Assembly (NCBI RefSeq): GCF_022045235.1
Contig: NW_027266279.1
Coordinates: forward strand, 3,410,001-3,474,000
Direction: 5' to 3'
Length of the DNA: 64,000 nucleotides
Source of the DNA: Haliotis cracherodii
Lineage: Eukaryota
Position numbers and translations under genes: made by a program. This document shows, piece by piece, positions 5,393 to 37,112 of this stretch. A model generated the notes under the pieces. That model saw only the letters and a list, made by a program, of their open reading frames with translations. It was not told the DNA's origin and did no database searches. The first letter of the stretch is position 1. Every line of letters starts with the position of its first letter.

Positions 5393-5612
5393 TGTATCTA
5401 GTAGTGAGATACAGGTGTCTAGTGGTGAGATACAGGTGTATCTAGTGTTGAGATACAGGTGTATCTAGTAGTGAGATACAGGTGTCTAGTGGTGAGATAC
5501 AGGTGTATCTAGTGGTGAGATACAGGTGTCTAGTGGTGAGATACAGGTGTCAAGTGGTGAGATACAGGTGTGTCTAGTGGTGAGATACAACAGTGTGTAG
5601 TGGTGAGATACC
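5393..5612. repeat. 21-23-bp minisatellite, right part
   Basis: Same unit as 3815-4376. Confidence 0.95.
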
Positions 5613-13341: not shown

Positions 13342-14957
13342 TACAAATGAAAAAGGAAATCAGGTACACTATGAATCGAAATGCTCCCAATGGAGAAAGA
13401 AAGAGAGCAAGTTCTATTTTGACATTTTCCTCAACATGTATTTGTAAACTAACACCAGATTATATAATATCACCTTGGCATTGGAGAGTTTCATTCTTTA
13501 TTATTTACGTCTTCCTGAATAACCATCAAAACCTGCTGTGCATTTGTTACGTAAGGTGGCGCCCCTTGGATGTTTCTCTGTTGGATTAAATGCAAGGTGC
13601 ACTGACTCATCCAATGAATTCAAAGCAAACATGACATACAAAAAAAATGAATGGACAGATGTCTATAAAATGCAAGAACAGTGATTAGCTATTAATATCC
13701 TGTTACTATAGGTTTCGTTCTGCAGTTTCTTGGTCCCATCAATGACTATTGTAAAAGACGTATATCTGAAATGAGCAAACAGTAGATACTGCATGCTTTT
13801 CATTTGATGAAAATACACCGATATTTATGGAATTACAACACGTACTACATACCTCCATCGCCTTATATGCTGCTCGTAGCACCACAACACATACTGTAAG
13901 TAATATCTACTCAATAATGGACACAGAAGTGACCGTGCAGCCACTTATATTCGAGATATTTACACCTTTCTGAGAAGCGTAGGGCTACAGTCTGAAAGCA
14001 GAATATGAGACCGCTCCATGTCACACATCTGAGTTGCTTTGTTCAAAGCAGTTAAAAGAAAGCTAGACAATTAATTCAACTATTGTAGTCTGCATGTTTA
14101 AAATATTTCTTTGAGCTCTTTCCACACGATCGAAATCGCGTACCAATATATGCTGACCGCTGTAACCTGTAAGGAGCATACTATCTCCATTTGACTCAGC
14201 AATACAGTAAACTAAATGTAATGTCAACGGTATTACATTTAAGAAGGAGTGCTAAATGACATCCTATTATGGTGTGCGGATAGTGTATCAATGCAGTTAG
14301 CACACTGATAGTCAAATGGACAGGTGTGAAGTTAATTAGGTATGGTATGTTGCTACTTTCATACTATTGTAATTCTCCACAAGGTCAAAACTGCTAAAAT
14401 GCAGAAACGTCTAAAAGTGGACAAGAACAAGGTGAAGCATTTGGGGACGATTATGTAGGGTTGAAAATTCTTTAAATCTTGAGACAAAACATATTAGAGG
14501 GGAAGAGTTCTGTTTTTGACGCATACACAGTGAAGACAAAATGTTGAAATACATTAAAAGCAAAATGTTCTCATAGCTTAGATATAAAGGTATTTTGCAA
14601 TTATCAACGGAATCTGTTAAGCTAATTCTAGAGACGATGTGTATGATTTCACTACATGAAACTGATATATACCATGTATTTACAATTCTCTTTCCGACAA
14701 CACAGTCAAGTCAAGAAGTGAATTATTTGCAATGTTTAATTGTAAATTACCTTTTGTATTAAGAGGATTCATATGCCAACAATGGTACTAAAACTAACCC
14801 TCGCTGCAGCTGTTTTTGTAATCAACAGGATACGGTTCTCTGTATGTGCGTTTGTATTATACATCATGTACCACATAGGAGATATGTGTTTCTTCTTTAA
14901 ATTTGCAGGTAAGCAGTAAGTAGATACAAAGTCGAAAAGACATATTCATTTCATGGT

Positions 14958-14963
14958 TTTATT
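14958..14963 (-). terminator. Polyadenylation signal AATAAA of copy 1, present in every unit
   Basis: Plus-strand TTTATT ~113 nt past the stop codon, followed on the minus strand by U-rich TCTTTTCGACTTTGT. Confidence 0.8.
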
Positions 14964-15075
14964 TGAAGTCGTTTCTCAAAGTTGGCATTGAATAGTGTGG
15001 TGTAGCCAACGAGGCTATGACAACGATGACATCAAATGTCCAACATTTGATAGAAATGTGAAGAGCCTGTTGAGT

Positions 15076-15719
15076 TTAACCATGGTGGCCACCGCCTCCA
15101 TGGCCACCTCCTCCATGGCCGCCGCCACCGTGACCACCGCCGCCGCCGCCGCCACCATGACCACCTCCGTGGCCGCCACCTCCATGTCCGCCGCCACCAT
15201 GACCCCCACCACCTTTGCCGCCTCCTCCGTGGCCGCCACCCCCTTTGCCACCGCCTCCTTTTCCGCCACCTCCTCCGTGGCCGCCACCTCCTTTGCCACC
15301 GCCTCCTTTGCCACCACCTCCTTTGCCACCACCTCCTTTGCCACCGCCTCCTTTGCCACCGCCTCCCTTTCCACCGCCTCCCTTTCCACCGCCTCCATGT
15401 CCTCCTCCGCCTCCTTTGCCGCCACCCCCTCCGCGGCCACCATAGGCAGAGCCAAAGAAGGCTGTGAACACTAGAAAGGAGAACAGTGCATCTGTAGTTA
15501 AATGTCTTTAAAGAACAACGCAAGAATATAGTTTTCAACCTCATAATGTTGCCAATTACCTTTTGTACGCTCTTTAAGTCACGTTGTTGTAGAAAATACG
15601 CAATGAATTAAAAGATAAGTGAATTTATCAGTCCACATTTCAATAGAACTCACACAGCTCACGTTTGAAAGGTTGAACTTACCCAAGGCCACAACGAGTG
15701 CAATTTTATAGAGCTGCAT
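15076..15719 (-). CDS. Secreted Gly/Lys/His-rich protein copy 1, 143 aa; exons 15719-15683 and 15470-15076
   Basis: Donor G|GTAAGT at 15682, acceptor TCCTTTCTAG|TG at 15471; the join gives a signal peptide in frame with the Gly repeat; one extra GGGGK and an H>R change near the mature N-terminus. Confidence 0.9.
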
Positions 15720-15758
15720 CTTCACAGTTACGTCTATCCACAGTAGAATAAACGGTGT

Positions 15759-15794
15759 GAATGACCATATAGCAAATACACAAGGCCTTTTATA
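15759..15794 (-). promoter_or_regulatory. Core promoter of copy 1: TATAAAA (15794-15788) and Inr-like TCATTC (+1 A at ~15762), present in every unit
   Basis: TATA-to-Inr spacing ~32 nt; 43-nt 5'UTR to the ATG at 15719 (context GAAGATG). Confidence 0.8.
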
Positions 15795-17545
15795 CAAATG
15801 GATAAGGAAATCAGGACACTATGAATCGAAATACTCCCAATGGAGAAAGAAAGAGAACAAGTTCTATTTTGACTTTTTCCTTAACTTGTATTTGTAAACT
15901 AACACCAGATTATATAATATCACCTTGGCATTGGAGAGTTTCATTCTTTATTATTTACGTCTTCCTGAATAACCATCAAAACCTGCTGTGCATTTGTTAC
16001 GTAAGGTGGCGCCCCTTGGATGTTTCTCTGTTGGATTAAATGCAAGGTGCACTGACTCATCCAATGAATTCAAAGCAAATATGACATACAAAAAAATGAA
16101 TGGACAGATGTCTATAAAATGCAAGAACAATGATTAGCTGTTAATATCCTGTTACTATAGGTTTCGTTATGCAGTTTCTTGGTCCCATCAATGACTATTG
16201 TAAAAGACGTATATCTGAAATGAGCAAACAGTAGATACTGCATGCTTTTCATTTGATGAAAATACACCGATATTTATGGAATTACAACACGTACTACATG
16301 CCTCCATCGCCTTATATGCTGCTCGTAGCACCACACATACACATACTGTAAGTAATATCTACTCAATAATGGACACAGAAGTGACCGTGTAGCCACTTAT
16401 ACACGAGATATTTACACCTTTCTGAGAAGCGTAGGGATACAATAGGGCTACAGTCTGAAAGCAGAATATGAGACCGCTCCATGTCACACATCTGAGTTGC
16501 TTTGTTCAAAGCAGTTAAAAGAAAGCTAGACAATTAATTCAACTATTGTAGTCTGCATGTTTAAAATATTTCTTTGAGCTCTTTCCACACGATCGAAATC
16601 GCGTACCAATATATGCTGACCGCTGTAACCTGTAAGGAGCATACTATCTCCATTTGACTCAGCAATACAGTAAACTAAATGTAATGTCAACGGTATTACA
16701 TTTAAGAAGGAGTGCTAAATGACATCCTATTATGGTGTGCGGATAGTGTATCAATGCAGTTAGCACACTGATAGTCAAATGGACAGGTGTGAAGTTAATT
16801 AGGTATGGTATGTTGCTACTTTAATACTATTGTAATTCTCCACAAGGTCAAAACTGCTAAAATGCAGAAACGTCTAAAAGTGGACAAGAACAAGGTAGAT
16901 GTGAAGCATTTGGGGACGATTATGTAGGGTTGAAAAATTCTTTAAATCTTGAGACAAAACATATTAGAGGGGAAGAGTTCTGTTTTTGACGCATACACAG
17001 TGAAGACAAAATGTTGAAATACATTAAAAGCAAAATGTTCTCATAGCTTAGATATAAAGGTATTTTGCAATTATCAACGGAATCTGTTAAGCTAATTCTA
17101 GAGACGATGTGTATGATTTCACTACATGAAACTGATATATACCATGTATTTACAATTCTCTTTCCGACAACACAGTCAAGTCAAGAAGTGAATTATTTGC
17201 AATGTTTAATTGTAAATTACCTTTTGTATTAAGAGGATTCATATGCCAACAATGGTACTAAAACTAACCCTCGCTGCAGCTGTTTTTGTAATCAACAGGA
17301 TACGGTTCTCTGTATGTGCGTTTGTATTATACATCATGTACCACATAGGAGATATGTGTTTCTTCTTTAAATTTGCAGGTAAGCAGTAAGTAGATACAAA
17401 GTCGAAAAGACATATTCATTTCATGGTTTTATTTGAAGTCGTTTCTCAAAGTTGGCATTGAATAGTGTGGTGTAGCCAACGAGGCTATGACAACGATGAC
17501 ATCAAATGTCCAACATTTGATAGAAATGTGAAGAGCCTGTTGAGT

Positions 17546-18174
17546 TTAACCATGGTGGCCACCGCCTCCATGGCCACCTCCTCCATGGCCGCCGCCACCG
17601 TGACCACCGCCGCCGCCGCCGCCACCATGACCACCTCCGTGGCCGCCACCTCCATGTCCGCCGCCACCATGACCCCCACCACCTTTGCCGCCTCCTCCGT
17701 GGCCGCCACCCCCTTTGCCACCGCCTCCTTTTCCGCCACCTCCTCCGTGGCCGCCACCTCCTTTGCCACCGCCTCCTTTGCCACCACCTCCTTTGCCACC
17801 GCCTCCTTTGCCACCGCCTCCTTTGCCACCGCCTCCCTTTCCACCGCCTCCATGTCCTCCTCCGCCTCCTTTGCCGCCACCCCCTCCGTGGCCACCATAG
17901 GCAGAGCCAAAGAAGGCTGTGAACACTAGAAAGGAGAACAGTGCATCTGTAGTTAAATGTCTTTAAAGAACAACGCAAGAATATAGTTTTCAACCTCATA
18001 ATGTTGCCAATTACCTTTTGTACGCTCTTTAAGTCACGTTGTTGTAGAAAATACGCAATGAATTAAAAGATAAGTGAATTTATCAGTCCACATTTCAATA
18101 GAACTCACACAGCTCACGTTTGAAAGGTTGAACTTACCCAAGGCCACAACGAGTGCAATTTTATAGAGCTGCAT
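17546..18174 (-). CDS. GKH-rich protein copy 2, 138 aa (modal form); exons 18174-18138 and 17925-17546
   Basis: Same structure as copy 1. Confidence 0.9.
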
Positions 18175-19999
18175 CTTCACAGTTACGTCTATCCACAGTA
18201 GAATAAACGGTGTGAATGACCATATAGCAAATACACAAGGCCTTTTATACAAATGGATAAGGAAATCAGGACACTATGAATCGAAATACTCCCAATGGAG
18301 AAAGAAAGAGAACATGTTCTATTTTGACTTTTTCCTTAACATGTATTTGTAAACTAACACCAGATTATATAATATCACCTTGGCATTGGAGAGTTTCATT
18401 CTTTATTATTTACGTCTTCCTGAATAACCATCAAAACCTGCTGTGCATTTGTTACGTAAGGTGGCGCCCCTTGGATGTTTCTCTGTTGGATTAAATGCAA
18501 GGTGCACTGACTCATCCAATGAATTCAAAGCAAATATGACATACAAAAAAATGAATGGACAGATGTCTATAAAATGCAAGAACAATGATTAGCTGTTAAT
18601 ATCCTGTTACTATAGGTTTCGTTATGCAGTTTCTTGGTCCCATCAATGACTATTGTAAAAGACGTATATCTGAAATGAGCAAACAGTAGATACTGCATGC
18701 TTTTCATTTGATGAAAATACACCGATATTTATGGAATTACAACACGTACTACATACCTCCATCGCCTTATATGCTGCTCGTAGCACCACACATACACACA
18801 CTGCAAGTAATATCTACTCAATAATGGACACAGAAGTGACCGTGCAGCCACTTATACACGAGATATTTACACCTTTCTGAGAAGCGTAGGGATACAATAG
18901 GGCTACAGTCTGAAAGCAGAATATGAGACCGCTCCATGTCACACATCTGAGTTGCTTTGTTCAAAGCAGTTAAAAGAAAGCTAGACAATTAATTCAACTA
19001 TTGTAGTCTGCATGTTTCAAATATTTCTTTGAGCTCTTTCCACACGATCGAAATCGCGTACCAATATATGCTGACCGCTGTAACCTGTAAGGAGCATACT
19101 ATCTCCATTTGACTCAGCAATACAGTAAACTAAATGTAATGTCAACGGTATTACATTTAAGAAGGAGTGCTAAATGACATCCTATTATGGTGTGCGGATA
19201 GTGTATCAATGCAGTTAGCACACTGATAGTCAAATGGACAGGTGTGAAGTTAATTAGGTATGGTATATTGCTACTTTAATACTATTGTAATTCTCCACAA
19301 GGTCAAAACTGCTAAAATGCAGAAACGTCTAAAAGTGGACAAGAACAAGGTAGATGTGAAGCATTTGGGGACGATTAGGTAGGGTTGAAAATTCTTTAAA
19401 TCTTGAGACAAAACATATTAGAGGGGAAGAGTTCTGTTTTTGACGCATACACAGTGAAGACAAAATGTTGAAATACATTAAAAGCAAAATGTTCTCATAG
19501 GATAGATATAAAGGTATTTTGCAATTATCAACGGAATCTGTTAAGCTAATTCTAGAGACGATGTGTATGATTTCACTACATGAAACTGATATATACCATG
19601 TATTTACAATTCTCTTTCCGACAACACAGTCAAGTCAAGAAGTGAATTATTTGCAATGTTTAATTGTAAATTACCTTTTGTATTAGGAGGATTCATATGC
19701 CAACAATGGTACTAAAACTAACTCTCGCTGCAGCTGTTTTTGTAATAAACAGGATACGGTTCTCCGTATGTGCGTTTGTATTATACATCATGTACCACAT
19801 AGGAGATATGTGTTTCTTCTTTAAATTTGCAGGTAAGCAGTAAGTAGATACAAAGTCGAAAAGACATATTCATTTCATGGTTTTATTTGAAGTCGTTTCT
19901 CAAAGTTGGCATTGAATAGTGTGGTGTAGCCAACGAGGCTATGACAACGATGACATCAAATGTCCAACATTTGATAGAAATGTGAAGAGCCTGTTGAGT

Positions 20000-20610
20000 T
20001 TAACCATGGTGGCCACCGCCTCCATGGCCACCTCCTCCATGGCCGCCGCCGCCGCCGCCACCATGACCACCTCCGTGGCCGCCACCTCCATGTCCGCCGC
20101 CACCATGACCCCCACCACCTTTGCCGCCTCCTCCGTGGCCGCCACCCCCTTTGCCACCGCCTCCTTTTCCGCCACCTCCTCCGTGGCCGCCACCTCCTTT
20201 GCCACCGCCTCCTTTGCCACCACCTCCTTTGCCACCGCCTCCTTTGCCACCGCCTCCTTTGCCACCGCCTCCCTTTCCACCGCCTCCATGTCCTCCTCCG
20301 CCTCCTTTGCCGCCACCCCCTCCGTGGCCACCATAGGCAGAGCCAAAGAAGGCTGTGAACACTAGAAAGGAGAACAGTGCATCTGTAGTTAAATGTCTTT
20401 AAAGAACAACGCAAGAATATAGTTTTCAACCTCATAATGTTGCCAATTACCTTTTGTACGCTCTTTAAGTCACGTTGTTGTAGAAAATACGCAATGAATT
20501 AAAAGATAAGTGAATTTATCAGTCCACATTTCAATAGAACTCACACAGCTCACGTTTGAAAGGTTGAACTTACCCAAGGCCACAACGAGTGCAATTTTAT
20601 AGAGCTGCAT
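20000..20610 (-). CDS. GKH-rich protein copy 3, 132 aa (18-bp in-frame deletion)
   Basis: Exons 20610-20574 and 20361-20000. Confidence 0.9.
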
Positions 20611-22435
20611 CTTCACAGTTACGTCTATCCACAGTAGAATAAACGGTGTGAATGACCATATAGCAAATACACAAGGCCTTTTATACAAATGGATAAGGAA
20701 ATCAGGACACTATGAATCGAAATACTCCCAATGGAGAAAGAAAGAGAACAAGTTCTATTTTGAATTTTTCCTTAACATGTATTTGTAAACTAACACCAGA
20801 TTATATAATATCACCTTGGCATTGGAGAGTTTCATTCTTTATTATTTACGTCTTCCTGAATAACCATCAAAACCTGCTGTGCATTTGTTACGTAAGGTGG
20901 CGCCCCTTGGATGTTTCTCTGTTGGATTAAATGCAAGGTGCACTGACTCATCCAATGAATTCAAAGCAAATATGACATACAAAAAAATGAATGGACAGAT
21001 GTCTATAAAATGCAAGAACAATGATTAGCTGTTAATATCCTGTTACTATAGGTTTCGTTATGCAGTTTCTTGGTCAAATCAATGACTATTGTAAAAGACG
21101 TATATCTGAAATGAACAAACAGTAGATACTGCATGCTTTTCATTTGATGAAAATACACCGATATTTATGGAATTACAACACGTACTACATGCCTCCATCG
21201 CCTTATATGCTGCTCGTAGCACCACACATACACATACTGTAAGTAATATCTACTCAATAATGGACACAGAAGTGACCGTGCAGCCACTTATACACGAGAT
21301 ATTTACACCTTTCTGAGAAGCGTAGGGATACAATAGGGCTACAGTCTGAAAGCAGAATATTAGACCGCTCCATGTCACACATCTGAGTTGCTTTGTTCAA
21401 AGCAGTTAAAAGAAAGCTAGACAATTAATTCAACTATTGTAGTCTGCATGTTTAAAATATTTCTTTGAGCTCTTTCCACACGATCGAAATCGCGTACCAA
21501 TATATGCTGACCGCTGTAACCTGTAAGGAGCATACTATCTCCATTTGACTCAGCAATACAGTAAACTAAATGTAATGTCAACGGTATTACATTTAAGAAG
21601 GAGTGCTAAATGACATCCTATTATGGTGTGCGGATAGTGTATCAATGCAGTTAGCACACTGATAGTCAAATGGACAGGTGTGAAGTTAATTAGGTATGGT
21701 ATATTGCTACTTTAATACTATTGTAATTCTCCACAAGGTCAAAACTGCTAAAATGCAGAAACGTCTAAAAGTGGACAAGAACAAGGTAGATGTGAAGCAT
21801 TTGGGGACGATTATGTAGGGTTGAAAATTCTTTAAATCTTGAGACAAAACATATTAGAGGGGAAGAGTTCTGTTTTTGACGCATACACAGTGAAGACAAA
21901 ATGTTGAAATACATTAAAAGCAAAATGTTCTCATAGGATAGATATAAAGGTATTTTGCAATTATCAACGGAATCTGTTAAGCTAATTCTAGAGACGATGT
22001 GTATGATTTCACTACATGAAACTGATATATACCATGTATTTACAATTCTCTTTCCGACAACACAGTCAAGTCAAGAAGTGAATTATTTGCAATGTTTAAT
22101 TGTAAATTACCTTTTGTATTAGGAGGATTCATATGCCAACAATGGTACTAAAACTAACTCTCGCTGCAGCTGTTTTTGTAATAAACAGGATACGGTTCTC
22201 CGTATGTGCGTTTGTATTATACATCATGTACCACATAGGAGATATGTGTTTCTTCTTTAAATTTGCAGGTAAGCAGTAAGTAGATACAAAGTCGAAAAGA
22301 CATATTCATTTCATGGTTTTATTTGAAGTCGTTTCTCAAAGTTGGCATTGAATAGTGTGGTGTAGCCAACGAGGCTATGACAACGATGACATCAAATGTC
22401 CAACATTTGATAGAAATGTGAAGAGCCTGTTGAGT

Positions 22436-23047
22436 TTAACCATGGTGGCCACCGCCTCCATGGCCACCTCCTCCATGGCCGCCGCCGCCGCCGCCACCAT
22501 GACCACCTCCGTGGCCGCCACCTCCATGTCCGCCGCCACCATGACCCCCACCACCTTTGCCGCCTCCTCCGTGGCCGCCACCCCCTTTGCCACCGCCTCC
22601 TTTTCCGCCACCTCCTCCGTGGCCGCCACCTCCTTTGCCACCGCCTCCTTTGCCACCACCTCCTTTGCCACCGCCTCCTTTGCCACCGCCTCCTTTGCCA
22701 CCGCCTCCCTTTCCACCGCCTCCATGTCCTCCTCCGCCTCCTTTGCCGCCACCCCCCTCCGTGGCCACCATAGGCAGAGCCAAAGAAGGCTGTGAACACT
22801 AGAAAGGAGAACAGTGCATCTGTAGTTAAATGTCTTTAAAGAACAACGCAAGAATATAGTTTTCAACCTCATAATGTTGCCAATTACCTTTTGTACGCTC
22901 TTTAAGTCACGTTGTTGTAGAAAATACGCAATGAATTAAAAGATAAGTGAATTTATCAGTCCACATTTCAATAGAACTCACACAGCTCACGTTTGAAAGG
23001 TTGAACTTACCCAAGGCCACAACGAGTGCAATTTTATAGAGCTGCAT
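22436..23047 (-). pseudogene. GKH-rich copy 4 with +1 frameshift (C6 at 22752-22757); pseudogene, alternative-frame allele or sequencing error
   Basis: 6 C where the consensus has 5; the frame shifts just after the signal peptide into an Arg/Trp-rich frame ending at 22392. Confidence 0.6.
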
Positions 23048-24874
23048 CTTCACAGTTACGTCTATCCACAGTAGAATAAACGGTGTGAATGACCATATAG
23101 CAAATACACAAGGCCTTTTATACAAATGGATAAGGAAATCAGGACACTATGAATCGAAATACTCCCAATGGAGAAAGAAAGAGAACAAGTTCTATTTTGA
23201 ATTTTTCCTTAACATGTATTTGTAAACTAACACCAGATTATATAATATCACCTTGGCATTGGAGAGTTTCATTCTTTATTATTTACGTCTTCCTGAATAA
23301 CCATCAAAACCTGCTGTGCATTTGTTACGTAAGGTGGCGCCCCTTGGATGTTTCTCTGTTGGATTAAATGCAAGGTGCACTGACTCATCCAATGAATTCA
23401 AAGCAAATATGACATACAAAAAAATGAATGGACAGATGTCTATAAAATGCAAGAACAATGATTAGCTGTTAATATCCTGTTACTATAGGTTTCGTTATGC
23501 AGTTTCTTGGTCAAATCAATGACTATTGTAAAAGACGTATATCTGAAATGAGCAAACAGTAGATACTGCATGCTTTTCATTTGATGAAAATACACCGATA
23601 TTTATGGAATTACAACACGTACTACATGCCTCCATCGCCTTATATGCTGCTCGTAGCACCACACATACACATACTGTAAGTAATATCTACTCAATAATGG
23701 ACACAGAAGTGACCGTGCAGCCACTTATACACGAGATATTTACACCTTTCTGAGAAGCGTAGGGATACAATAGGGCTACAGTCTGAAAGCAGAATATTAG
23801 ACCGCTCCATGTCACACATCTGAGTTGCTTTGTTCAAAGCAGTTAAAAGAAAGCTAGACAATTAATTCAACTATTGTAGTCTGCATGTTTAAAATATTTC
23901 TTTGAGCTCTTTCCACACGATCGAAATCGCGTACCAATATATGCTGACCGCTGTAACCTGTAAGGAGCATACTATCTCCATTTGACTCAGCAATACAGTA
24001 AACTAAATGTAATGTCAACGGTATTACATTTAAGAAGGAGTGCTAAATGACATCCTATTATGGTGTGCGGATAGTGTATCAATGCAGTTAGCACACTGAT
24101 AGTCAAATGGACAGGTGTGAAGTTAATTAGGTATGGTATATTGCTACTTTAATACTATTGTAATTCTCCACAAGGTCAAAACTGCTAAAATGCAGAAACG
24201 TCTAAAAGTGGACAAGAACAAGGTAGATGTGAAGCATTTGGGGACGATTATGTAGGGTTGAAAATTCTTTAAATCTTGAGACAAAACATATTAGAGGGGA
24301 AGAGTTCTGTTTTTGACGCATACACAGTGAAGACAAAATGTTGAAATACATTAAAAGCAAAATGTTCTCATAGGATAGATATAAAGGTATTTTGCAATTA
24401 TCAACGGAATCTGTTAAGCTAATTCTAGAGACGATGTGTATGATTTCACTACAGGAAACTGATATATACCATGTATTTACAATTCTCTTTCCGACAACAC
24501 AGTCAAGTCAAGAAGTGAATTATTTGCAATGTTTAATTGTAAATTACCTTTTGTATTAGGAGGATTCATATGCCAACAATGGTACTAAAACTAACTCTCG
24601 CTGTGCAGCTGTTTTTGTAATCAACAGGATACGGTTCTCTGTATGTGCATTTGTATTATACATCATGTACCACATAGGAGATATGTGTTTCTTCTTTAAA
24701 TTTGCAGGTAAGCAGTAAGTAGATACAAAGTCGAAAAGACATATTCATTTCATGGTTTTATTTGAAGTCGTTTCTCAAAGTTGGCATTGAATAGTGTGGT
24801 GTAGCCAACGAGGCTATGACAACGATGACATCAAATGTCCAACATTTGATAGAAATGTGAAGAGCCTGTTGAGT

Positions 24875-25485
24875 TTAACCATGGTGGCCACCGCCTCCAT
24901 GGCCACCTCCTCCATGGCCGCCGCCGCCGCCGCCACCATGACCACCTCCGTGGCCGCCACCTCCATGTCCGCCGCCACCATGACCCCCACCACCTTTGCC
25001 GCCTCCTCCGTGGCCGCCACCCCCTTTGCCACCGCCTCCTTTTCCGCCACCTCCTCCGTGGCCGCCACCTCCTTTGCCACCGCCTCCTTTGCCACCACCT
25101 CCTTTGCCACCGCCTCCTTTGCCACCGCCTCCTTTGCCACCGCCTCCCTTTCCACCGCCTCCATGTCCTCCTCCGCTTCCTTTGCCGCCACCCCCTCCGT
25201 GGCCACCATAGGCAGAGCCAAAGAAGGCTGTGAACACTAGAAAGGAGAACAGTGCATCTGTAGTTAAATGTCTTTAAAGAACAACGCAAGAATATAGTTT
25301 TCAACCTCATAATGTTGCCAATTACCTTTTGTACGCTCTTTAAGTCACGTTGTTGTAGAAAATACGCAATGAATTAAAAGATAAGTGAATTTATCAGTCC
25401 ACATTTCAATAGAACTCACACAGCTCACGTTTGAAAGGTTGAACTTACCCAAGGCCACAACGAGTGCAATTTTATAGAGCTGCAT
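24875..25485 (-). CDS. GKH-rich protein copy 5, 132 aa, one G>S
   Basis: Exons 25485-25449 and 25236-24875. Confidence 0.9.
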
Positions 25486-27312
25486 CTTCACAGTTACGTC
25501 TATCCACAGTAGAATAAACGGTGTGAATGACCATATAGCAAATACACAAGGCCTTTTATACAAATGGATAAGGAAATCAGGACACTATGAATCGAAATAC
25601 TCCCAATGGAGAAAGAAAGAGAACAAGTTCTATTTTGACTTTTTCCTTAACATGTATTTGTAAACTAACACCAGATTATATAATATCACCTTGGCATTGG
25701 AGAGTTTCATTCTTTATTATTTACGTCTTCCTGAATAACCATCAAAACCTGCTGTGCATTTGTTACGTAAGGTGGCGCCCCTTGGATGTTTCTCTGTTGG
25801 ATTAAATGCAAGGTGCACTGACTCATCCAATGAATTCAAAGCAAATATGACATACAAAAAAATGAATGGACAGATGTCTATAAAATGCAAGAACAATGAT
25901 TAGCTGTTAATATCCTGTTACTATAGGTTTCGTTATGCAGTTTCTTGGTCCCATCAATGACTATTGTAAAAGACGTATATCTGAAATGAGCAAACAGTAG
26001 ATACTGCATGCTTTTCATTTGATGAAAATACACCGATATTTATGGAATTACAACACGTACTACATGCCTCCATCGCCTTATATGCTGCTCGTAGCACCAC
26101 ACATACACACACTGTAAGTAATATCTACTCAATAATGGACACAGAAGTGACCGTGCAGCCACTTATACACGAGATATTTACACCTTTCTGAGAAGCGTAG
26201 GGATACAATAGGGCTACAGTCTGAAAGCAGAATATTAGACCGCTCCATGTCACACATCTGAGTTGCTTTGTTCAAAGCAGTTAAAAGAAAGCTAGACAAT
26301 TAATTCAACTATTGTAGTCTGCATGTTTAAAATATTTCTTTGAGCTCTTTCCACACGATCGAAATCGCGTACCAATATATGCTGACCGCTGTAACCTGTA
26401 AGGAGCATACTATCTCCATTTGACTCAGCAATACAGTAAACTAAATGTAATGTCAACGGTATTACATTTAAGAAGGAGTGCTAAATGACATCCTATTATG
26501 GTGTGCGGATAGTGTATCAATGCAGTTAGCACACTGATAGTCAAATGGACAGGTGTGAAGTTAATTAGGTATGGTATATTGCTACTTTAATACTATTGTA
26601 ATTCTCCACAAGGTCAAAACTGCTAAAATGCAGAAACGTCTAAAAGTGGACAAGAACAAGGTAGATGTGAAGCATTTGGGGACGATTATGTAGGGTTGAA
26701 AATTCTTTAAATCTTGAGACAAAACATATTAGAGGGGAAGAGTTCTGTTTTTGACGCATACACAGTGAAGACAAAATGTTGAACTACATTAAAAGCAAAA
26801 TGTTCTCATAGGATAGATATAAAGGTATTTTGCAATTATCAACGGAATCTGTTAAGCTAATTCTAGAGACGATGTGTATGATTTCACTACAGGAAACTGA
26901 TATATACCATGTATTTACAATTCTCTTTCCGACAACACAGTCAAGTCAAGAAGTGAATTATTTGCAATGTTTAATTGTAAATTACCTTTTGTATTAGGAG
27001 GATTCATATGCCAACAATGGTACTAAAACTAACTCTCGCTGTGCAGCTGTTTTTGTAATCAACAGGATACGGTTCTCTGTATGTGCGTTTGTATTATACA
27101 TCATGTACCACATAGGAGATATGTGTTTCTTCTTTAAATTTGCAGGTAAGCAGTAAGTAGATACAAAGTCGAAAAGACATATTCATTTCATGGTTTTATT
27201 TGAAGTCGTTTCTCAAAGTTGGCATTGAATAGTGTGGTGTAGCCAACGAGGCTATGACAACGATGACATCAAATGTCCAACATTTGATAGAAATGTGAAG
27301 AGCCTGTTGAGT

Positions 27313-27924
27313 TTAACCATGGTGGCCACCGCCTCCATGGCCACCTCCTCCATGGCCGCCGCCGCCGCCGCCACCATGACCACCTCCGTGGCCGCCACCT
27401 CCATGTCCGCCGCCACCATGACCCCCACCACCTTTGCCGCCTCCTCCGTGGCCGCCACCCCCCTTTGCCACCGCCTCCTTTTCCGCCACCTCCTCCGTGG
27501 CCGCCACCTCCTTTGCCACCGCCTCCTTTGCCACCACCTCCTTTGCCACCGCCTCCTTTGCCACCGCCTCCTTTGCCACCGCCTCCCTTTCCACCGCCTC
27601 CATGTCCTCCTCCGCCTCCTTTGCCGCCACCCCCTCCGTGGCCACCATAGGCAGAGCCAAAGAAGGCTGTGAACACTAGAAAGGAGAACAGTGCATCTGT
27701 AGTTAAATGTCTTTAAAGAACAACGCAAGAATATAGTTTTCAACCTCATAATGTTGCCAATTACCTTTTGTACGCTCTTTAAGTCACGTTGTTGTAGAAA
27801 ATACGCAATGAATTAAAAGATAAGTGAATTTATCAGTCCACATTTCAATAGAACTCACACAGCTCACGTTTGAAAGGTTGAACTTACCCAAGGCCACAAC
27901 GAGTGCAATTTTATAGAGCTGCAT
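27313..27924 (-). pseudogene. GKH-rich copy 6 with +1 frameshift (C6 at 27458-27463)
   Basis: Gly/Lys N-terminal half, then an Arg/Trp-rich frame to the stop at 27269. Confidence 0.6.
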
Positions 27925-29749
27925 CTTCACAGTTACGTCTATCCACAGTAGAATAAACGGTGTGAATGACCATATAGCAAATACACAAGGCCTTTTATAC
28001 AAATGGATAAGGAAATCAGGACACTATGAATCGAAATACTCCCAATGGAGAAAGAAAGAGAACAAGTTCTATTTTGACTTTTTCCTTAACATGTATTTGT
28101 AAACTAACACCAGATTATATAATATCACCTTGGCATTGGAGAGTTTCATTCTTTATTATTTACGTCTTCCTGAATAACCATCAAAACCTGCTGTGCATTT
28201 GTTACGTAAGGTGGCGCCCCTTGGATGTTTCTCTGTTGGATTAAATGCAAGGTGCACTGACTCATCCAATGAATTCAAAGCAAATATGACATACAAAAAA
28301 ATGAATGGACAGATGTCTATAAAATGCAAGAACAATGATTAGCTGTTAATATCCTGTTACTATAGGTTTCGTTATGCAGTTTCTTGGTCCCATCAATGAC
28401 TATTGTAAAAGACGTATATCTGAAATGAGCAAACAGTAGATACTGCATGCTTTTCATTTGATGAAAATACACCGATATTTATGGAATTACAACACGTACT
28501 ACATGCCTCCATCGCCTTATATGCTGCTCGTAGCACCACACATACACACACTGTAAGTAATATCTACTCAATAATGGACACAGAAGTGACCGTGCAGCCA
28601 CTTATACACGAGATATTTACACCTTTCTGAGAAGCGTAGGGATACAATAGGGCTACAGTCTGAAAGCAGAATATGAGACCGCTCCATGTCACACATCTGA
28701 GTTGCTTTGTTCAAAGCAGTTAAAAGAAAGCTAGACAATTAATTCAACTATTGTAGTCTGCATGTTTAAAATATTTCTTTGAGCTCTTTCCACACGATCG
28801 AAATCGCGTACCAATATATGCTGACCGCTGTAACCTGTAAGGAGCATACTATCTCCATTTGACTCAGCAATACAGTAAACTAAATGTAATGTCAACGGTA
28901 TTACATTTAAGAAGGAGTGCTAAATGACATCCTATTATGGTGTGCGGATAGTGTATCAATGCAGTTAGCACACTGATAGTCAAATGGACAGGTGTGAAGT
29001 TAATTAGGTATGGTATATTGCTACTTTAATACTATTGTAATTCTCCACAAGGTCAAAACTGCTAAAATGCAGAAACGTCTAAAAGTGGACAAGAACAAGG
29101 TAGATGTGAAGCATTTGGGGACGATTATGTAGGGTTGAAAATTCTTTAAATCTTGAGACAAAACATATTAGAGGGGAAGAGTTCTGTTTTTGACGCATAC
29201 ACAGTGAAGACAAAATGTTGAAGTACATTAAAAGCAAAATGTTCTCATAGGATAGATATACAGGTATTTTGCAATTATCAACGGAATCTGTTAAGCTAAT
29301 TCTAGAGACGATGTGTATGATTTCACTACATGAAACTGATATATACCATGTATTTACAATTCTCTTTCCGACAACACAGTCAAGTCAAGAAGTGAATTAT
29401 TTGCAATGTTTAATTGTAAATTACCTTTTGTATTAGGAGGATTCATATGCCAACAATGGTACTAAAACTAACTCTCGCTGCAGCTGTTTTTGTAATAAAC
29501 AGGATACGGTTCTCTGTATGTGCGTTTGTATTATACATCATGTACCACATAGGAGATATGTGTTTCTTCTTTAAATTTGCAGGTAAGCAGTAAGTAGATA
29601 CAAAGTCGAAAAGACATATTCATTTCATGGTTTTATTTGAAGTCGTTTCTCAAAGTTGGCATTGAATAGTGTGGTGTAGCCAACGAGGCTATGACAACGA
29701 TGACATCAAATGTCCAACATTTGATAGAAATGTGAAGAGCCTGTTGAGT

Positions 29750-30378
29750 TTAACCATGGTGGCCACCGCCTCCATGGCCACCTCCTCCATGGCCGCCGCC
29801 ACCGTGACCACCGCCGCCGCCGCCGCCACCATGACCACCTCCGTGGCCGCCACCTCCATGTCCGCCGCCACCATGACCCCCACCACCTTTGCCGCCTCCT
29901 CCGTGGCCGCCACCCCCTTTGCCACCGCCTCCTTTTCCGCCACCTCCTCCGTGGCCGCCACCTCCTTTGCCACCGCCTCCTTTGCCACCACCTCCTTTGC
30001 CACCGCCTCCTTTGCCACCGCCTCCTTTGCCACCGCCTCCCTTTCCACCGCCTCCATGTCCTCCTCCGCCTCCTTTGCCGCCACCCCCTCCGTGGCCACC
30101 ATAGGCAGAGCCAAAGAAGGCTGTGAACACTAGAAAGGAGAACAGTGCATCTGTAGTTAAATGTCTTTAAAGAACAACGCAAGAATATAGTTTTCAACCT
30201 CATAATGTTGCCAATTACCTTTTGTACGCTCTTTAAGTCACGTTGTTGTAGAAAATACGCAATGAATTAAAAGATAAGTGAATTTATCAGTCCACATTTC
30301 AATAGAACTCACACAGCTCACGTTTGAAAGGTTGAACTTACCCAAGGCCACAACGAGTGCAATTTTATAGAGCTGCAT
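29750..30378 (-). CDS. GKH-rich protein copy 7, 138 aa
   Basis: Exons 30378-30342 and 30129-29750. Confidence 0.9.
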
Positions 30379-32203
30379 CTTCACAGTTACGTCTATCCAC
30401 AGTAGAATAAACGGTGTGAATGACCATATAGCAAATACACAAGGCCTTTTATACAAATGGATAAGGAAATCAGGACACTATGAATCGAAATACTCCCAAT
30501 GGAGAAAGAAAGAGAACAAGTTCTATTTTGACTTTTTCCTTAACATGTATTTGTAAACTAACACCAGATTATATTATATCACCTTGGCATTGGAGAGTTT
30601 CATTCTTTATTATTTACGTCTTCCTGAATAACCATCAAAACCTGCTGTGCATTTGTTACGTAAGGTGGCGCCCCTTGGATGTTTCTCTGTTGGATTAAAT
30701 GCAAGGTGCACTGACTCATCCAATGAATTCAAAGCAAATATGACATACAAAAAAATGAATGGACAGATGTCTATAAAATGCAAGAACAATGATTAGCTGT
30801 TAATATCCTGTTACTATAGGTTTCGTTATGCAGTTTCTTGGTCCCATCAATGACTATTGTAAAAGACGTATATCTGAAATGAGCAAACAGTAGATACTGC
30901 ATGCTTTTCATTTGATGAAAATACACCGATATTTATGGAATTACAACACGTACTACATGCCTCCATCGCCTTATATGCTGCTCGTAGCACCACACATACA
31001 CACACTGCAAGTAATATCTACTCAACAATGGACACAGAAGTGACCGTGTAGCCACTTATACACGAGATATTTACACCTTTCTGAGAAGCGTAGGGATACA
31101 ATAGGGCTACAGTCTGAAAGCAGAATATTAGACCGCTCCATGTCACACATCTGAGTTGCTTTGTTCAAAGCAGTTAAAAGAAAGCTAGACAATTAATTCA
31201 ACTATTGTAGTCTGCATGTTTAAAATATTTCTTTGAGCTCTTTCCACACGATCGAAATCGCGTACCAATATATGCTGACCGCTGTAACCTGTAAGGAGCA
31301 TACTATCTCCATTTGACTCAGCAATACAGTAAACTAAATGTAATGTCAACGGTATTACATTTAAGAAGGAGTGCTAAATGACATCCTATTATGGTGTGCG
31401 GATAGTGTATCAATGCAGTTAGCACACTGATAGTCAAATGGACAGGTGTGAAGTTAATTAGGTATGGTATATTGCTACTTTAATACTATTGTAATTCTCC
31501 ACAAGGTCAAAACTGCTAAAATGCAGAAACGTCTAAAAGTGGACAAGAACAAGGTAGATGTGAAGCATTTGGGGACGATTATGTAGGGTTGAAAATTCTT
31601 TAAATCTTGAGACAAAACATATTAGAGGGGAAGAGTTCTGTTTTTGACGCATACACAGTGAAGACAAAATGTTGAAATACATTAAAAGCAAAATGTTCTC
31701 ATAGGATAGATATAAAGGTATTTTGCAATTATCAACGGAATCTGTTAAGCTAATTCTAGAGACGATGTGTATGATTTCACTACAGGAAACTGATATATAC
31801 CATGTATTTACAATTCTCTTTCCGACAACACAGTCAAGTCAAGAAGTGAATTATTTGCAATGTTTAATTGTAAATTACCTTTTGTATTAAGAGGATTCAT
31901 ATGCCAACAATGGTACTAAAACTAACTCTCGCTGCAGCTGTTTTTGTAATCAACAGGATACGGTTCTCTGTATGTGCGTTTGTATTATACATCATGTACC
32001 ACATAGGAGATATGTGTTTCTTCTTTAAATTTGCAGGTAAGCAGTAAGTAGATACAAAGTCGAAAAGACATATTCATTTCATGGTTTTATTTGAAGTCGT
32101 TTCTCAAAGTTGGCATTGAATAGTGTGGTGTAGCCAACGAGGCTATGACAACGATGACATCAAATGTCCAACATTTGATAGAAATGTGAAGAGCCTGTTG
32201 AGT

Positions 32204-32832
32204 TTAACCATGGTGGCCACCGCCTCCATGGCCACCTCCTCCATGGCCGCCGCCACCGTGACCACCGCCGCCGCCGCCGCCACCATGACCACCTCCGTGG
32301 CCGCCACCTCCATGTCCGCCGCCACCATGACCCCCACCACCTTTGCCGCCTCCTCCGTGGCCGCCACCCCCTTTGCCACCGCCTCCTTTTCCGCCACCTC
32401 CTCCGTGGCCGCCACCTCCTTTGCCACCGCCTCCTTTGCCACCATCTCCTTTGCCACCGCCTCCTTTGCCACCGCCTCCTTTGCCACCGCCTCCCTTTCC
32501 ACCGCCTCCATGTCCTCCTCCGCCTCCTTTGCCGCCACCCCCTCCGTGGCCACCATAGGCAGAGCCAAAGAAGGCTGTGAACACTAGAAAGGAGAACAGT
32601 GCATCTGTAGTTAAATGTCTTTAAAGAACAACGCAAGAATATAGTTTTCAACCTCATAATGTTGCCAATTACCTTTTGTACGCTCTTTAAGTCACGTTGT
32701 TGTAGAAAATACGCAATGAATTAAAAGATAAGTGAATTTATCAGTCCACATTTCAATAGAACTCACACAGCTCACGTTTGAAAGGTTGAACTTACCCAAG
32801 GCCACAACGAGTGCAATTTTATAGAGCTGCAT
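32204..32832 (-). CDS. GKH-rich protein copy 8, 138 aa, one G>D
   Basis: Exons 32832-32796 and 32583-32204. Confidence 0.9.
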
Positions 32833-34657
32833 CTTCACAGTTACGTCTATCCACAGTAGAATAAACGGTGTGAATGACCATATAGCAAATACACAAGGCC
32901 TTTTATACAAATGGATAAGGAAATCAGGACACTATGAATCGAAATACTCCCAATGGAGAAAGAAAGAGAACAAGTTCTATTTTGACTTTTTCCTTAACTT
33001 GTATTTGTAAACTAACACCAGATTATATTATATCACCTTGGCATTGGAGAGTTTCATTCTATATTATTTACGTCTTCCTGAATAACCATCAAAACATGCT
33101 GTGCATTTGTTACGTAAGGTGGCGCCCCTTGGATGTTTCTCTGTTGGATTAAATGCAAGGTGCACTGACTCATCCAATGAATTCAAAGCAAATATGACAT
33201 ACAAAAAAATGAATGGACAGATGTCTATAAAATGCAAGAACAATGATTAGCTGTTAATATCCTGTTACTATAGGTTTCGTTATGCAGTTTCTTGGTCCCA
33301 TCAATGACTATTGTAAAAGACGTATATCTGAAATGAGCAAACAGTAGATACTGCATGCTTTTCATTTGATGAAAATACACCGATATTTATGGAATTACAA
33401 CACGTACTACATGCCTCCATCGCCTTATATGCTGCTCGTAGCACCACACATACACATACTGTAAGTAATATCTACTCAATAATGGACACAGAAGTGACCG
33501 TGCAGCCACTTATACACGAGATATTTACACCTTTCTGAGAAGCGTAGGGATACAATAGGGCTACAGTCTGAAAGCAGAATATGAGACCGCTCCATGTCAC
33601 ACATCTGAGTTGCTTTGTTCAAAGCAGTTAAAAGAAAGCTAGACAATTAATTCAACTATTGTAGTCTGCATGTTTAAAATATTTCTTTGAGCTCTTTCCA
33701 CACGATCGAAATCGCGTACCAATATATGCTGACCGCTGTAACCTGTAAGGAGCATACTATCTCCATTTGACTCAGCAATACAGTAAACTAAATGTAATGT
33801 CAACGGTATTACATTTAAGAAGGAGTGCTAAATGACATCCTATTATGGTGTGCGGATAGTGTATCAATGCAGTTAGCACACTGATAGTCAAATGGACAGG
33901 TGTGAAGTTAATTAGGTATGGTATGTTGCTACTTTAATACTATTGTAATTCTCTACAAGGTCAAAACTGCTAAAATGCAGAAACGTCTAAAAGTGGACAA
34001 GAACAAGGTAGATGTGAAGCATTTGGGGACGATTAGGTAGGGTTGAAAATTCTTTAAATTTTGAGACAAAACATATTAGAGGGGAAGAGTTCTGTTTTTG
34101 ACGCATACACAGTGAAGACAAAATGTTGAAATACATTAAAAGCAAAATGTTCTCATAGGATAGATATAAAGGTATTTTGCAATTATCAACGGAATCTGTT
34201 AAGCTAATTCTAGAGACGATGTGTATGATTTCACTACATGAAACTGATATATACCATGTATTTACAATTCTCTTTCCGACAACACAGTCAAGTCAAGAAG
34301 TGAATTATTTGCAATGTTTAATTGTAAATTACCTTTTGTATTAGGAGGATTCATATGCCAACAATGGTACTAAAACTAACTCTCGCTGCAGCTGTTTTTG
34401 TAATAAACAGGATACGGTTCTCCGTATGTGCGTTTGTATTATACATCATGTACCACATAGGAGATATGTGTTTCTTCTTTAAATTTGCAGGTAAGCAGTA
34501 AGTAGATACAAAGTCGAAAAGACATATTCATTTCATGGTTTTATTTGAAGTCGTTTCTCAAAGTTGGCATTGAATAGTGTGGTGTAGCCAACGAGGCTAT
34601 GACAACGATGACATCAAATGTCCAACATTTGATAGAAATGTGAAGAGCCTGTTGAGT

Positions 34658-35287
34658 TTAACCATGGTGGCCACCGCCTCCATGGCCACCTCCTCCATGG
34701 CCGCCGCCACCGTGACCACCGCCGCCGCCGCCGCCACCATGACCACCTCCGTGGCCGCCACCTCCATGTCCGCCGCCACCATGACCCCCACCACCTTTGC
34801 CGCCTCCTCCGTGGCCGCCACCCCCCTTTGCCACCGCCTCCTTTTCCGCCACCTCCTCCGTGGCCGCCACCTCCTTTGCCACCGCCTCCTTTGCCACCAC
34901 CTCCTTTGCCACCGCCTCCTTTGCCACCGCCTCCTTTGCCACCGCCTCCCTTTCCACCGCCTCCATGTCCTCCTCCGCCTCCTTTGCCGCCACCCCCTCC
35001 GTGGCCACCATAGGCAGAGCCAAAGAAGGCTGTGAACACTAGAAAGGAGAACAGTGCATCTGTAGTTAAATGTCTTTAAAGAACAACGCAAGAATATAGT
35101 TTTCAACCTCATAATGTTGCCAATTACCTTTTGTACGCTCTTTAAGTCACGTTGTTGTAGAAAATACGCAATGAATTAAAAGATAAGTGAATTTATCAGT
35201 CCACATTTCAATAGAACTCACACAGCTCACGTTTGAAAGGTTGAACTTACCCAAGGCCACAACGAGTGCAATTTTATAGAGCTGCAT
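34658..35287 (-). pseudogene. GKH-rich copy 9 with +1 frameshift (C6 at 34821-34826, same site as copy 6)
   Basis: Gly/Lys N-terminal half, then an Arg/Trp-rich frame to the stop at 34614. Confidence 0.6.
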
Positions 35288-37112
35288 CTTCACAGTTACG
35301 TCTATCCACAGTAGAATAAACGGTGTGAATGACCATATAGCAAATACACAAGGCCTTTTATACAAATGGATAAGGAAATCAGGACACTATGAATCGAAAT
35401 ACTCCCAATGGAGAAAGAAAGAGAACAAGTTCTATTTTGACTTTTTCCTTAACATGTATTTGTAAACTAACACCAGATTATATAATATCACCTTGGCATT
35501 GGAGAGTTTCATTCTTTATTATTTACGTCTTCCTGAATAACCATCAAAACCTGCTGTGCATTTGTTACGTAAGGTGGCGCCCCTTGGATGTTTCTCTGTT
35601 GGATTAAATGCAAGGTGCACTGACTCATCCAATGAATTCAAAGCAAATATGACATACAAAAAAATGAATGGACAGATGTCTATAAAATGCAAGAACAATG
35701 ATTAGCTGTTAATATCCTGTTACTATAGGTTTCGTTATGCAGTTTCTTGGTCCCATCAATGACTATTGTAAAAGACGTATATCTGAAATGAGCAAACAGT
35801 AGATACTGCATGCTTTTCATTTGATGAAAATACACCGATATTTATGGAATTACAACACGTACTACATGCCTCCATCGCCTTATATGCTGCTCGTAGCACC
35901 ACACATACACACACTGCAAGTAATATCTACTCAATAATGGACACAGAAGTGACCGTGTAGCCACTTATACACGAGATATTTACACCTTTCTGAGAAGCGT
36001 AGGGATACAATAGGGCTACAGTCTGAAAGCAGAATATGAGACCGCTCCATGTCACACATCTGAGTTGCTTTGTTCAAAGCAGTTAAAAGAAAGCTAGACA
36101 ATTAATTCAACTATTGTAGTCTGCATGTTTAAAATATTTCTTTGAGCTCTTTCCACACGATCGAAATCGCGTACCAATATATGCTGACCGCTGTAACCTG
36201 TAAGGAGCATACTATCTCCATTTGACTCAGCAATACAGTAAACTAAATGTAATGTCAACGGTATTACATTTAAGAAGGAGTGCTAAATGACATCCTATTA
36301 TGGTGTGCGGATAGTGTATCAATGCAGTTAGCACACTGATAGTCAAATGGACAGGTGTGAAGTTAATTAGGTATGGTATATTGCTACTTTAATACTATTG
36401 TAATTCTCCACAAGGTCAAAACTGCTAAAATGCAGAAACGTCTAAAAGTGGACAAGAACAAGGTAGATGTGAAGCATTTGGGGACGATTATGTAGGGTTG
36501 AAAATTCTTTAAATCTTGAGACAAAACATATTAGAGGGGAAGAGTTCTGTTTTTGACGCATACACAGTGAAGACAAAATGTTGAAATACATTAAAAGCAA
36601 AATGTTCTCATGGCTTAGATATAAAGGTATTTTGCAATTATCAACGGAATCTGTTAAGCTAATTCTAGAGACGATGTGTATGATTTCACTACATGAAACT
36701 GATATATACCATGTATTTACAATTCTCTTTCCGACAACACAGTCAAGTCAAGAAGTGAATTATTTGCAATGTTTAATTGTAAATTACCTTTTGTATTAGG
36801 AGGATTCATATGCCAACAATGGTACTAAAACTAACTCTCGCTGCAGCTGTTTTTGTAATAAACAGGATACGGTTCTCTGTATGTGCGTTTGTATTATACA
36901 TCATGTACCACATAGGAGATATGTGTTTCTTCTTTAAATTTGCAGGTAAGCAGTAAGTAGATACAAAGTCGAAAAGACATATTCATTTCATGGTTTTATT
37001 TGAAGTCGTTTCTCAAAGTTGGCATTGAATAGTGTGGTGTAGCCAACGAGGCTATGACAACGATGACATCAAATGTCCAACATTTGATAGAAATGTGAAG
37101 AGCCTGTTGAGT

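What the first reader, a model, noticed from the sequence alone, without database searches (positions are those of the whole stretch)
17546..17893. Block-copolymer layout: (GGGGK)n N-terminal block grading into a (GGGGH)n C-terminal block
Seen: all 10 Lys lie in the first ~70 mature residues and the last ~45 residues contain only Gly and His, on a mostly 5-residue period. Length variants add GGGGK only in the Lys block (copies 1, 19) and add or remove Gly/His units only in the His block (copies 3-6, 19, 20). Inference: a permanently cationic, cross-linkable block (lysyl oxidase, transglutaminase or quinone tanning) is joined to a pH-switchable Zn/Cu/Ni-binding block. Such a protein could be stored soluble in acidic vesicles and set or coacervate at seawater pH, by analogy with His-rich mussel byssus and squid-beak proteins.
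Basis: partly seen in the sequence, partly recalled or inferred. Interest (0 to 1): 0.7.

Follow-up and report, generated by a model that had tools for sequence, protein, structure and literature searches.

The report
Abalone glycine-histidine-lysine peptide gene family
An abalone-type genome holds 119 copies, in four tandem arrays, of a spliced gene for a small, likely secreted protein made almost only of glycine, histidine and lysine; the lysine-then-histidine layout seen here occurs in only one of the four arrays, so the family likely acts through charge and metal binding, probably against microbes, rather than as a purpose-built two-block material.

Summary
The layout is real but is a gradient, and it is not the family rule. 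Copy 2 is a two-exon gene (intron skip seen in RNA-type contigs) for a predicted signal peptide plus 115 residues, G92 H13 K10. All Lys lie in residues 8-70, but four His lie there too. The genome, abalone-type by lysin and haemocyanin, has four homologous arrays, 119 genes: A (27; Lys-to-His gradient), B (28; Lys run, then alternating, no His block), C (48; no Lys), D (16; 2-3 central Lys). Only the ends (GH...HHG), gene structure and promoter islands are shared. A toy slippage model gives A's layout in 2-12% of runs. A keeps about +10 charge at pH 8.1 and has no aromatic or acidic residue, so simple self-coacervation is unlikely. Best reading, a narrow lead (0.40): Gly/His-rich defence peptides, Lys keeping charge at seawater pH. 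Rival (0.33): cross-linkable matrix filler. Tissue and activity are untested. I found no description in 10 literature searches. The scan had no note on this family, but notes other Gly-rich arrays in this genome.

The parts
13342..64000 (-). Tandem array A: 20 of its 27 units of about 2.45 kb; continues beyond the window to about G000:C16:3,490,000
18242..18249 (-). TATA-like box of copy 2; conserved islands shared by all four arrays lie around it (CAGGAAGA, GTGATATTA, TGATTTCCT, GTTTATTCT, ACGTAA)
   Evidence: function of the islands untested
18138..18209 (-). Exon 1 of copy 2 (ATG at 18174; 37 coding bases, phase-1 donor); transcript reaches at least 18209
   Evidence: contig 9 of X2, contig 16 of X4
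17926..18137 (-). 212-nt GT..AG intron
   Evidence: joint 17925-18138 in X2 and X4, not in DNA-like run X15
17894..17925 (-). Exon 2 start: second half of the predicted 23-residue signal peptide, ending A-Y-G
   Evidence: hydropathy plateau; cleavage site inferred from the small-residue -3/-1 rule (recalled), no predictor run
17684..17893 (-). Mature residues 1-70: Gly-His start, 10 Lys and 4 His on a 5-6 residue spacing
17549..17683 (-). Mature residues 71-115: Gly/His only, 9 His, ends His-His-Gly
17428..17548 (-). Stop codon (17548-17546), 3' UTR with the family-wide TGGACATTTGA island, and AATAAA at 17433-17428
22392..23047 (-). Copy 4, out of frame (one extra G in a G5 run); possibly a read error
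27269..27924 (-). Copy 6, out of frame (one extra G in a second G5 run); possibly a read error
34614..35287 (-). Copy 9, out of frame at the same G5 run as copy 6

Best explanation
This is one array of a 119-gene abalone family of spliced genes for small, likely secreted, likely unfolded Gly/His/Lys peptides that probably act as antimicrobial peptides through positive charge and histidine metal binding, with lysine likely keeping them cationic at seawater pH. Shown: gene structure, splicing, composition, copy number, four different Lys/His layouts, conserved ends. Inferred: secretion; cleavage to a Gly-His start; possible amidation through the terminal Gly; disorder; binding to anionic microbial surfaces and to Cu/Zn; high gene number as a way to make much peptide. 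On this reading what matters is the Lys:His ratio, which sets calculated charge at pH 8.1 at about +11 (B), +10 (A), +3 (D) and 0 (C), while all four carry +17 to +28 at pH 5.5. The block layout of A would be largely a by-product of local repeat slippage from an N-terminal Lys run that A and B inherited.
For: Size and composition match characterised Gly-rich antimicrobial peptides (ctenidins 109-120 aa, about 71% Gly; holotricin 3, 84 aa, 64% Gly; shepherins 66-68% Gly; Table 3 passage of PMC5031766) better than structural His proteins (MTP 30 kDa with never more than two Gly in a row; NVJP 32-40 kDa with acidic residues and Tyr). Synthetic peptides of Gly plus His only, or Gly plus Lys only, kill Pseudomonas at nanomolar levels, and Gly/His peptides more so with length (section 15 of PMC6399351). 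Layout varies while ends are kept: of 109 intact copies parsed, 106 start GH and 107 end HHG. Charges. No fold from a single-sequence model (pLDDT 45; weak, no alignment). No matching peptide in 27 of 27 supplement files of the H. laevigata shell proteome, where other poly-Gly strings were found (weak).
Against: No activity, tissue or induction data. The killing data are for 10 mM phosphate at pH 5.5; seawater-strength salt would screen charge, and the peptides have no hydrophobic face (inference). Copies within an array are 96-99% alike, not diversified as many immune families are. Array C is about neutral at pH 8.1. A and B (65% alike outside the repeat) both keep Lys first, which may reflect some selection on order. 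Glycera MTP shows that a Tyr-free Gly/His protein can be structural. Unchecked scan notes report other amplified Gly-rich arrays in this genome read as structural.
Confidence: 0.4

Rival explanations
1. Structural filler for a tanned or metal-hardened material (jaw, radula membrane, larval operculum, periostracum, adhesive mucus). His and Lys would be nucleophiles for quinones or metal ligands supplied by partners; this is the first reader's idea without the need for a two-block design.
For: Gly/His-rich secreted proteins build Glycera and Nereis jaws and squid beak; MTP has no Tyr and relies on separately secreted polyphenols. High, homogenised gene number fits bulk production. Unchecked notes e1-9540137, e1-9197086 and e1-9861485 describe Gly/Tyr- and Gly-His-Gly-rich arrays in the same genome that could be partners.
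Against: 8 kDa, 12-19% His and long Gly runs differ from MTP, NVJP and HBP. No Tyr, Gln, Cys or acidic residue in the main variants. Not in the adult shell proteome of another abalone (tryptic GGGGK pieces would be too short to see, and its database may lack the gene).
Confidence: 0.33
2. Soluble metal buffer or scavenger in mucus or haemolymph: the His arrays and Gly-His start bind Cu/Zn for detoxification or copper handling; Lys only adds solubility or anchoring to anionic mucus.
For: His is present in every array while Lys is dispensable (C, 48 genes); Gly-His start and His-His-Gly end are kept; the animal uses copper haemocyanin. N-terminal Xaa-His as a Cu(II) site is recalled, not tested.
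Against: B has only 5-6 His against 11-12 Lys; no metal-induction data; His spaced five apart on a flexible chain would probably bind weakly (inference).
Confidence: 0.15
3. The two-block order in A is itself selected: a cationic arm plus a pH-switched His arm that assembles into micelles or coacervates at seawater pH.
For: Polarity p=0.004 against shuffling; tail charge falls from +8 to about 0; order kept in near-identical contigs of four coded organisms; no indel mixes the two regions in 27 copies.
Against: Absent from 3 of 4 arrays; reachable by slippage in 2-12% of toy runs; the contigs are too close to test conservation; no hydrophobic stickers. This concerns the layout and can combine with any of the roles above.
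Confidence: 0.12

Closest known systems
Gly/His-rich antimicrobial peptides: holotricin 3, shepherins, tenecin 3; Gly-rich ctenidins, acanthoscurrins, armadillidins
   Same: Small, repeat-built, 64-72% Gly, cationic or His-rich, no defined fold; armadillidin H also starts Gly-His.
   Different: No sequence homology shown; here 79-81% Gly in A-C and 75% in D, a three-letter alphabet with no aromatic or aliphatic residue, and 119 gene copies; activity untested.
[quoted passage not shown]
   Same: Gly/His-only and Gly/Lys-only chains are the synthetic models used there.
   Different: Those are hornerin fragments and synthetic peptides tested in low salt at pH 5.5; this is a natural gene family of a marine animal.
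Glycera multi-tasking protein (MTP) and Nereis jaw proteins (NVJP)
   Same: Secreted, Gly plus His dominated; MTP lacks Tyr and includes HHG motifs.
   Different: 30-40 kDa, 27-40% His, acidic residues; MTP never has more than two Gly in a row.
Squid histidine-rich beak proteins (DgHBP) and mussel preCol His domains
   Same: His in Gly-rich repeats of a mollusc; pH rise on secretion.
   Different: HBPs use GHGxY and GAGFA pentapeptides; preCol His domains flank collagen and carry Dopa. None of these features is here.
Abalone Gly-rich mantle proteins Has-tsfgr1, Has-CL10Contig2, Has-GRBP
   Same: Secreted Gly-rich repeat proteins of abalone.
   Different: Motifs GGYGLGL, GGSGGSGFG, or Gly/Ala/Gln/Met-rich; not Lys/His-based.

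Membership tests
Gly/His-rich antimicrobial peptides (holotricin 3 / shepherin type) | Precursor with signal peptide | tested here: met
   Hydrophobic core and A-x-G end in all four arrays; by inspection, no predictor run
Gly/His-rich antimicrobial peptides (holotricin 3 / shepherin type) | Short mature chain, over 60% Gly, His or basic residues in repeats | tested here: met
   85-119 aa main variants, 75-81% Gly against Table 3 of PMC5031766
Gly/His-rich antimicrobial peptides (holotricin 3 / shepherin type) | No stable fold | tested here: inconclusive
   Single-sequence AlphaFold2, mean pLDDT 44.9; a polyglycine-II bundle cannot be excluded this way
Gly/His-rich antimicrobial peptides (holotricin 3 / shepherin type) | Antimicrobial activity; haemocyte or barrier-tissue expression | not testable with these tools
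   Runs are coded, tissue not given
Gly/His-rich antimicrobial peptides (holotricin 3 / shepherin type) | Homology to a named member | tested here: inconclusive
   No Pfam family, no PDB match, no hit at E<=0.001, 17 weak composition-only hits; low complexity defeats these searches, so 'works like', not 'member'
Squid HBP | GHGxY / GAGFA pentapeptides with Tyr, Phe, Ala | tested here: not met
   Main variants hold only G, K, H; 30 other residues among 11,078 in 109 intact copies
Squid HBP | pH-induced self-coacervation | not testable with these tools
   Only a charge estimate: about +10 at pH 8.1 for A
Glycera MTP / Nereis NVJP | Gly plus His dominate | tested here: met
   91% Gly+His in A, 100% in C
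Glycera MTP / Nereis NVJP | 30-40 kDa, 27-40% His, acidic residues; GGH/GHG/HHG repeats without Gly runs (MTP) | tested here: not met
   8.3 kDa, 11% His, no acidic residue, Gly runs of 3-8 in A
Glycera MTP / Nereis NVJP | Cu or Zn binding and location in a jaw | not testable with these tools
   No tissue or binding data
Mussel preCol His-rich domains | Collagen core, Dopa in the His domain | tested here: not met
   No Gly-X-Y core, no Tyr in the mature chain
Abalone shell-matrix Gly-rich proteins | Peptides in the shell proteome | tested here: inconclusive
   0 hits for three motifs in 27 of 27 supplement files of PMC6003135, control string GGGGG found in 13; detection bias applies

The most novel reading that the evidence does not exclude
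Abalones evolved a 119-gene set of three-letter (Gly/His/Lys) secreted polymers whose four arrays are charge-tuned versions of one chain (His-only, His with central Lys, Lys-to-His gradient, Lys-dominant), co-secreted so that pH and metal switch some members while others stay cationic; the gradient in A would then be a selected sequence pattern, giving a natural test of patterning against composition in disordered proteins.
Probability: 0.2. Interest if true: 0.7.

Novelty: new variant of a known kind. Interest (0 to 1): 0.42.

Why it matters
If the defence reading holds, a farmed mollusc has a very large, apparently undescribed family of Gly/His/Lys antimicrobial peptides, and Lys-for-His exchange would show how a His-based peptide can stay active at seawater pH. 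If the structural reading holds, it names a bulk component of an abalone hard or adhesive tissue. Either way the four arrays are a ready natural series (0, 3, 10, 12 Lys; central, graded or alternating) that makes the role of composition against order directly testable with four short synthetic chains. The block layout by itself is the least robust part of the finding.

Tried and rejected
Other reading frames of the repeat (Ala/Thr/Ser-rich plus-strand ORF; Val/Ala/Glu/Lys and Arg/Trp minus-strand ORFs): rejected as shadows, since only the Gly frame joins exon 1 through the observed splice and is kept in all four arrays. Downstream in-exon AG acceptor, 9 nt on, picked by my script for A and B (proteins printed there are 3 residues short in the signal peptide; mature parts unaffected): RNA-type contigs use 17925; C and D do use the downstream one. 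Protein searches: none at E<=0.001 among 7994 candidates; 17 composition-only hits at E<=1 among 7992, 10 of 17 read, none with the family's ends; Pfam 0; PDB 0; the protein atlas gave no answer. COX1 search in the assembly: 0. AlphaFold2 model too poor for a fold search. Two C19 matches to the 3' motif and two C7 matches to the exon-2 motif were fetched and hold no Gly-rich frame: chance. No listed holder run is on record as RNA; contig depth was not used to rank expression. No one-base indel was listed in 4 of 4 runs, which does not prove the frameshifts are errors. Literature search was too broad to be useful. Complex prediction not run: no partner claim. Neighbouring gene checked for an immune context: no family assigned. 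Dating of the arrays and the ancestral state (His-only or with Lys) not resolved: the tree is unrooted.

Full report
Observation. The stretch 17893-17546 (minus strand) encodes 115 residues and a stop: G92, H13, K10. The order of non-Gly residues is HKHKKKKKKHKKHKHHHHHHHHH, so four His lie in the Lys part and the layout is a gradient. Against shuffling, Lys-before-His has p=0.004, the 9-His tail p=0.0008, the number of runs p=0.11. The length variants are as stated, but duplication inside a uniform run can add only that unit, so they say little.

Gene. Each 2.45-kb unit holds a TATA-like box, a 37-base coding exon 1, a 212-base GT..AG intron and exon 2 with AATAAA. The joint 17925-18138 is present in contigs of 2 of 7 RNA-type runs laid (X2, X4, one study) and absent from the DNA-like run X15, which covers the intron. 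A third run, X3, leaves the genome at the acceptor with 9 of its first 10 loose letters matching the end of exon 1 (my reading). The joined frame gives a hydrophobic N-terminus; cleavage after A-Y-G, leaving Gly-His, is inferred from a recalled rule. The window holds 20 copies and the array 27; 22 are in frame. Five carry one extra G in either of two G5 runs, on different length backgrounds, which looks like read error but is not shown. Among copies, 14 of 19 distinct exon-2 substitutions are synonymous.

Organism. The assembly (1.18 Gb, 80 contigs) has egg-lysin exons, one aligning to the PDB sperm lysins, 1LIS first (E 6e-18; that these are abalone proteins is recalled), and 16 haemocyanin units in two clusters: a vetigastropod, most likely an abalone.

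Family. Searches of the own genome found three more arrays. B (C16, 5.23-5.29 Mb; 28 genes, 25 intact): HKKKKKKKKKHKHKHKHH, no His block. C (C23, 68.44-68.57 Mb; 48 genes, 47 intact): no Lys. D (C16, 4.97-5.02 Mb; 16 genes by ORF, 15 parsed, one skipped by my acceptor pattern): mostly GGGH units with 2-3 Lys at 34-57% of the length. All share exon 1 length, donor, promoter islands and a 3' UTR island. The 127 minus-strand matches to a stop-plus-UTR pattern add up as 27 + 29 + 16 + 49 (two relics included) + 6 unrelated places; 32 matches were not listed and I assigned them by arithmetic. Outside the repeat, A-B are 65% alike, C-D 87%, and the two pairs 52-56% (a gap-tolerant pairwise aligner gave 67-83%); the unrooted tree is (A,B)(C,D). 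Of 109 intact copies parsed, 106 begin GH and 107 end HHG. So a Lys block followed by a His block is found in 1 of 4 arrays.

How the layout can arise. The Lys units of A are near-identical 15-base words, and C shows the same local codon homogenisation with His units. In my toy model (duplication or deletion of 1-3 units, rare Lys/His switches, end His fixed, conditioned on 8-12 Lys and 11-15 His), A's polarity and tail arose together in 2-12% of 1500 runs per setting at switch rates 0-0.1, and 0.4-1.1% at 0.3. The layout is therefore not strong evidence of design, nor is selection excluded.

Chemistry. With textbook pKa values, A carries about +22 at pH 5.5 and +10 at pH 8.1; its tail alone goes from +8 to 0; B +17 to +11, C +17 to 0, D +28 to +3. 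There is no aromatic, aliphatic or acidic residue in the main variants. Passages of PMC9999432 give squid HBPs GHGxY/GAGFA repeats, give preCol His domains Dopa, and point to aromatic residues in phase separation; they also describe Glycera MTP, Tyr-free, which phase-separates with Cu. Self-coacervation of A on a pH rise is thus unlikely, while metal-, polyanion- or catechol-driven assembly stays open (inference). A single-sequence model shows no fold.

Most likely function. Size and composition fit Gly-rich antimicrobial peptides in Table 3 of PMC5031766, and section 15 of PMC6399351 reports nanomolar killing by Gly/His- and Gly/Lys-only peptides in 10 mM phosphate at pH 5.5. I therefore commit, narrowly (0.40), to defence peptides acting by charge and His-metal binding, Lys keeping charge where His is neutral. 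High salt, within-array uniformity and the neutral C array count against it. A structural filler (0.33), a metal buffer (0.15) and a selected two-block design (0.12) are the rivals. No call gave tissue or activity.

Literature seen. Ten searches (listings and abstract starts) gave no description of this family; the library lacks most subscription papers. Passages: PMC4944945 (7 supplement files searched, 0 hits), PMC6003135 (27 supplement files, 0 hits), PMC2034539, PMC5031766, PMC9999432, PMC11206429 (land-snail mucus peptides with single GGGGH/GGGK stretches but also Leu/Val), PMC7017220, PMC6399351 (abstract, section 15 whole, passages). The scan's own notes showed no look-alike window but several other Gly-rich arrays in this genome (unchecked), so amplification of such genes is not special to this locus.

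Verdict. Observation partly confirmed; block-copolymer interpretation partly supported at best. The robust result is an apparently undescribed 119-gene family with four Lys/His layouts: a new variant of a known kind, interest 0.42.

Noticed in passing
window 22392-23047, 27269-27924, 34614-35287; also copies 24 and 25 at G000:C16:3482316 and 3484800: The one-base shifts in G5 runs turn the Gly repeat into an Arg/Trp-rich frame behind the same signal peptide, ending in the 3' UTR. A by-product of Gly codons; real only if the shifts are not read errors.
   Followed up: partly
G000:C16:5266185, 5268471, 5291265 (array B) and C23:68485825 (array C): Premature TGA from a Gly codon in 3 B copies at one site and 1 C copy.
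   Followed up: partly
G000:C16 near 5294960 and C23 near 68587409: Relic partial copies at the upstream end of arrays B and C, the latter with many substitutions.
   Followed up: partly
window 18174-18520 and the same region of arrays B, C, D: Invariant promoter islands CAGGAAGA, GTGATATTA, TGATTTCCT, GTTTATTCT, ACGTAA despite 52-65% overall identity; they recall ETS, GATA-like, Forkhead and bZIP sites (recalled, untested).
   Followed up: partly
L014:3228-3728 (+), about 15 kb beyond array A: First exon of a likely secreted coiled-coil protein, with possible later exons in L070; no Pfam family passed.
   Followed up: partly
window 1643-2807, 3812-4377, 5393-5611: Minisatellites of 44 and 22-23 bases upstream of the array's left end.
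   Followed up: no
window 17379-17393: In DNA-like run X15, contigs leave the sequence on both sides of a 15-base overlap just past the poly(A) signal, as an insertion with a target-site duplication would.
   Followed up: no
L013:5666-6091 (-): Tc3-type transposase fragment right of array A.
   Followed up: no
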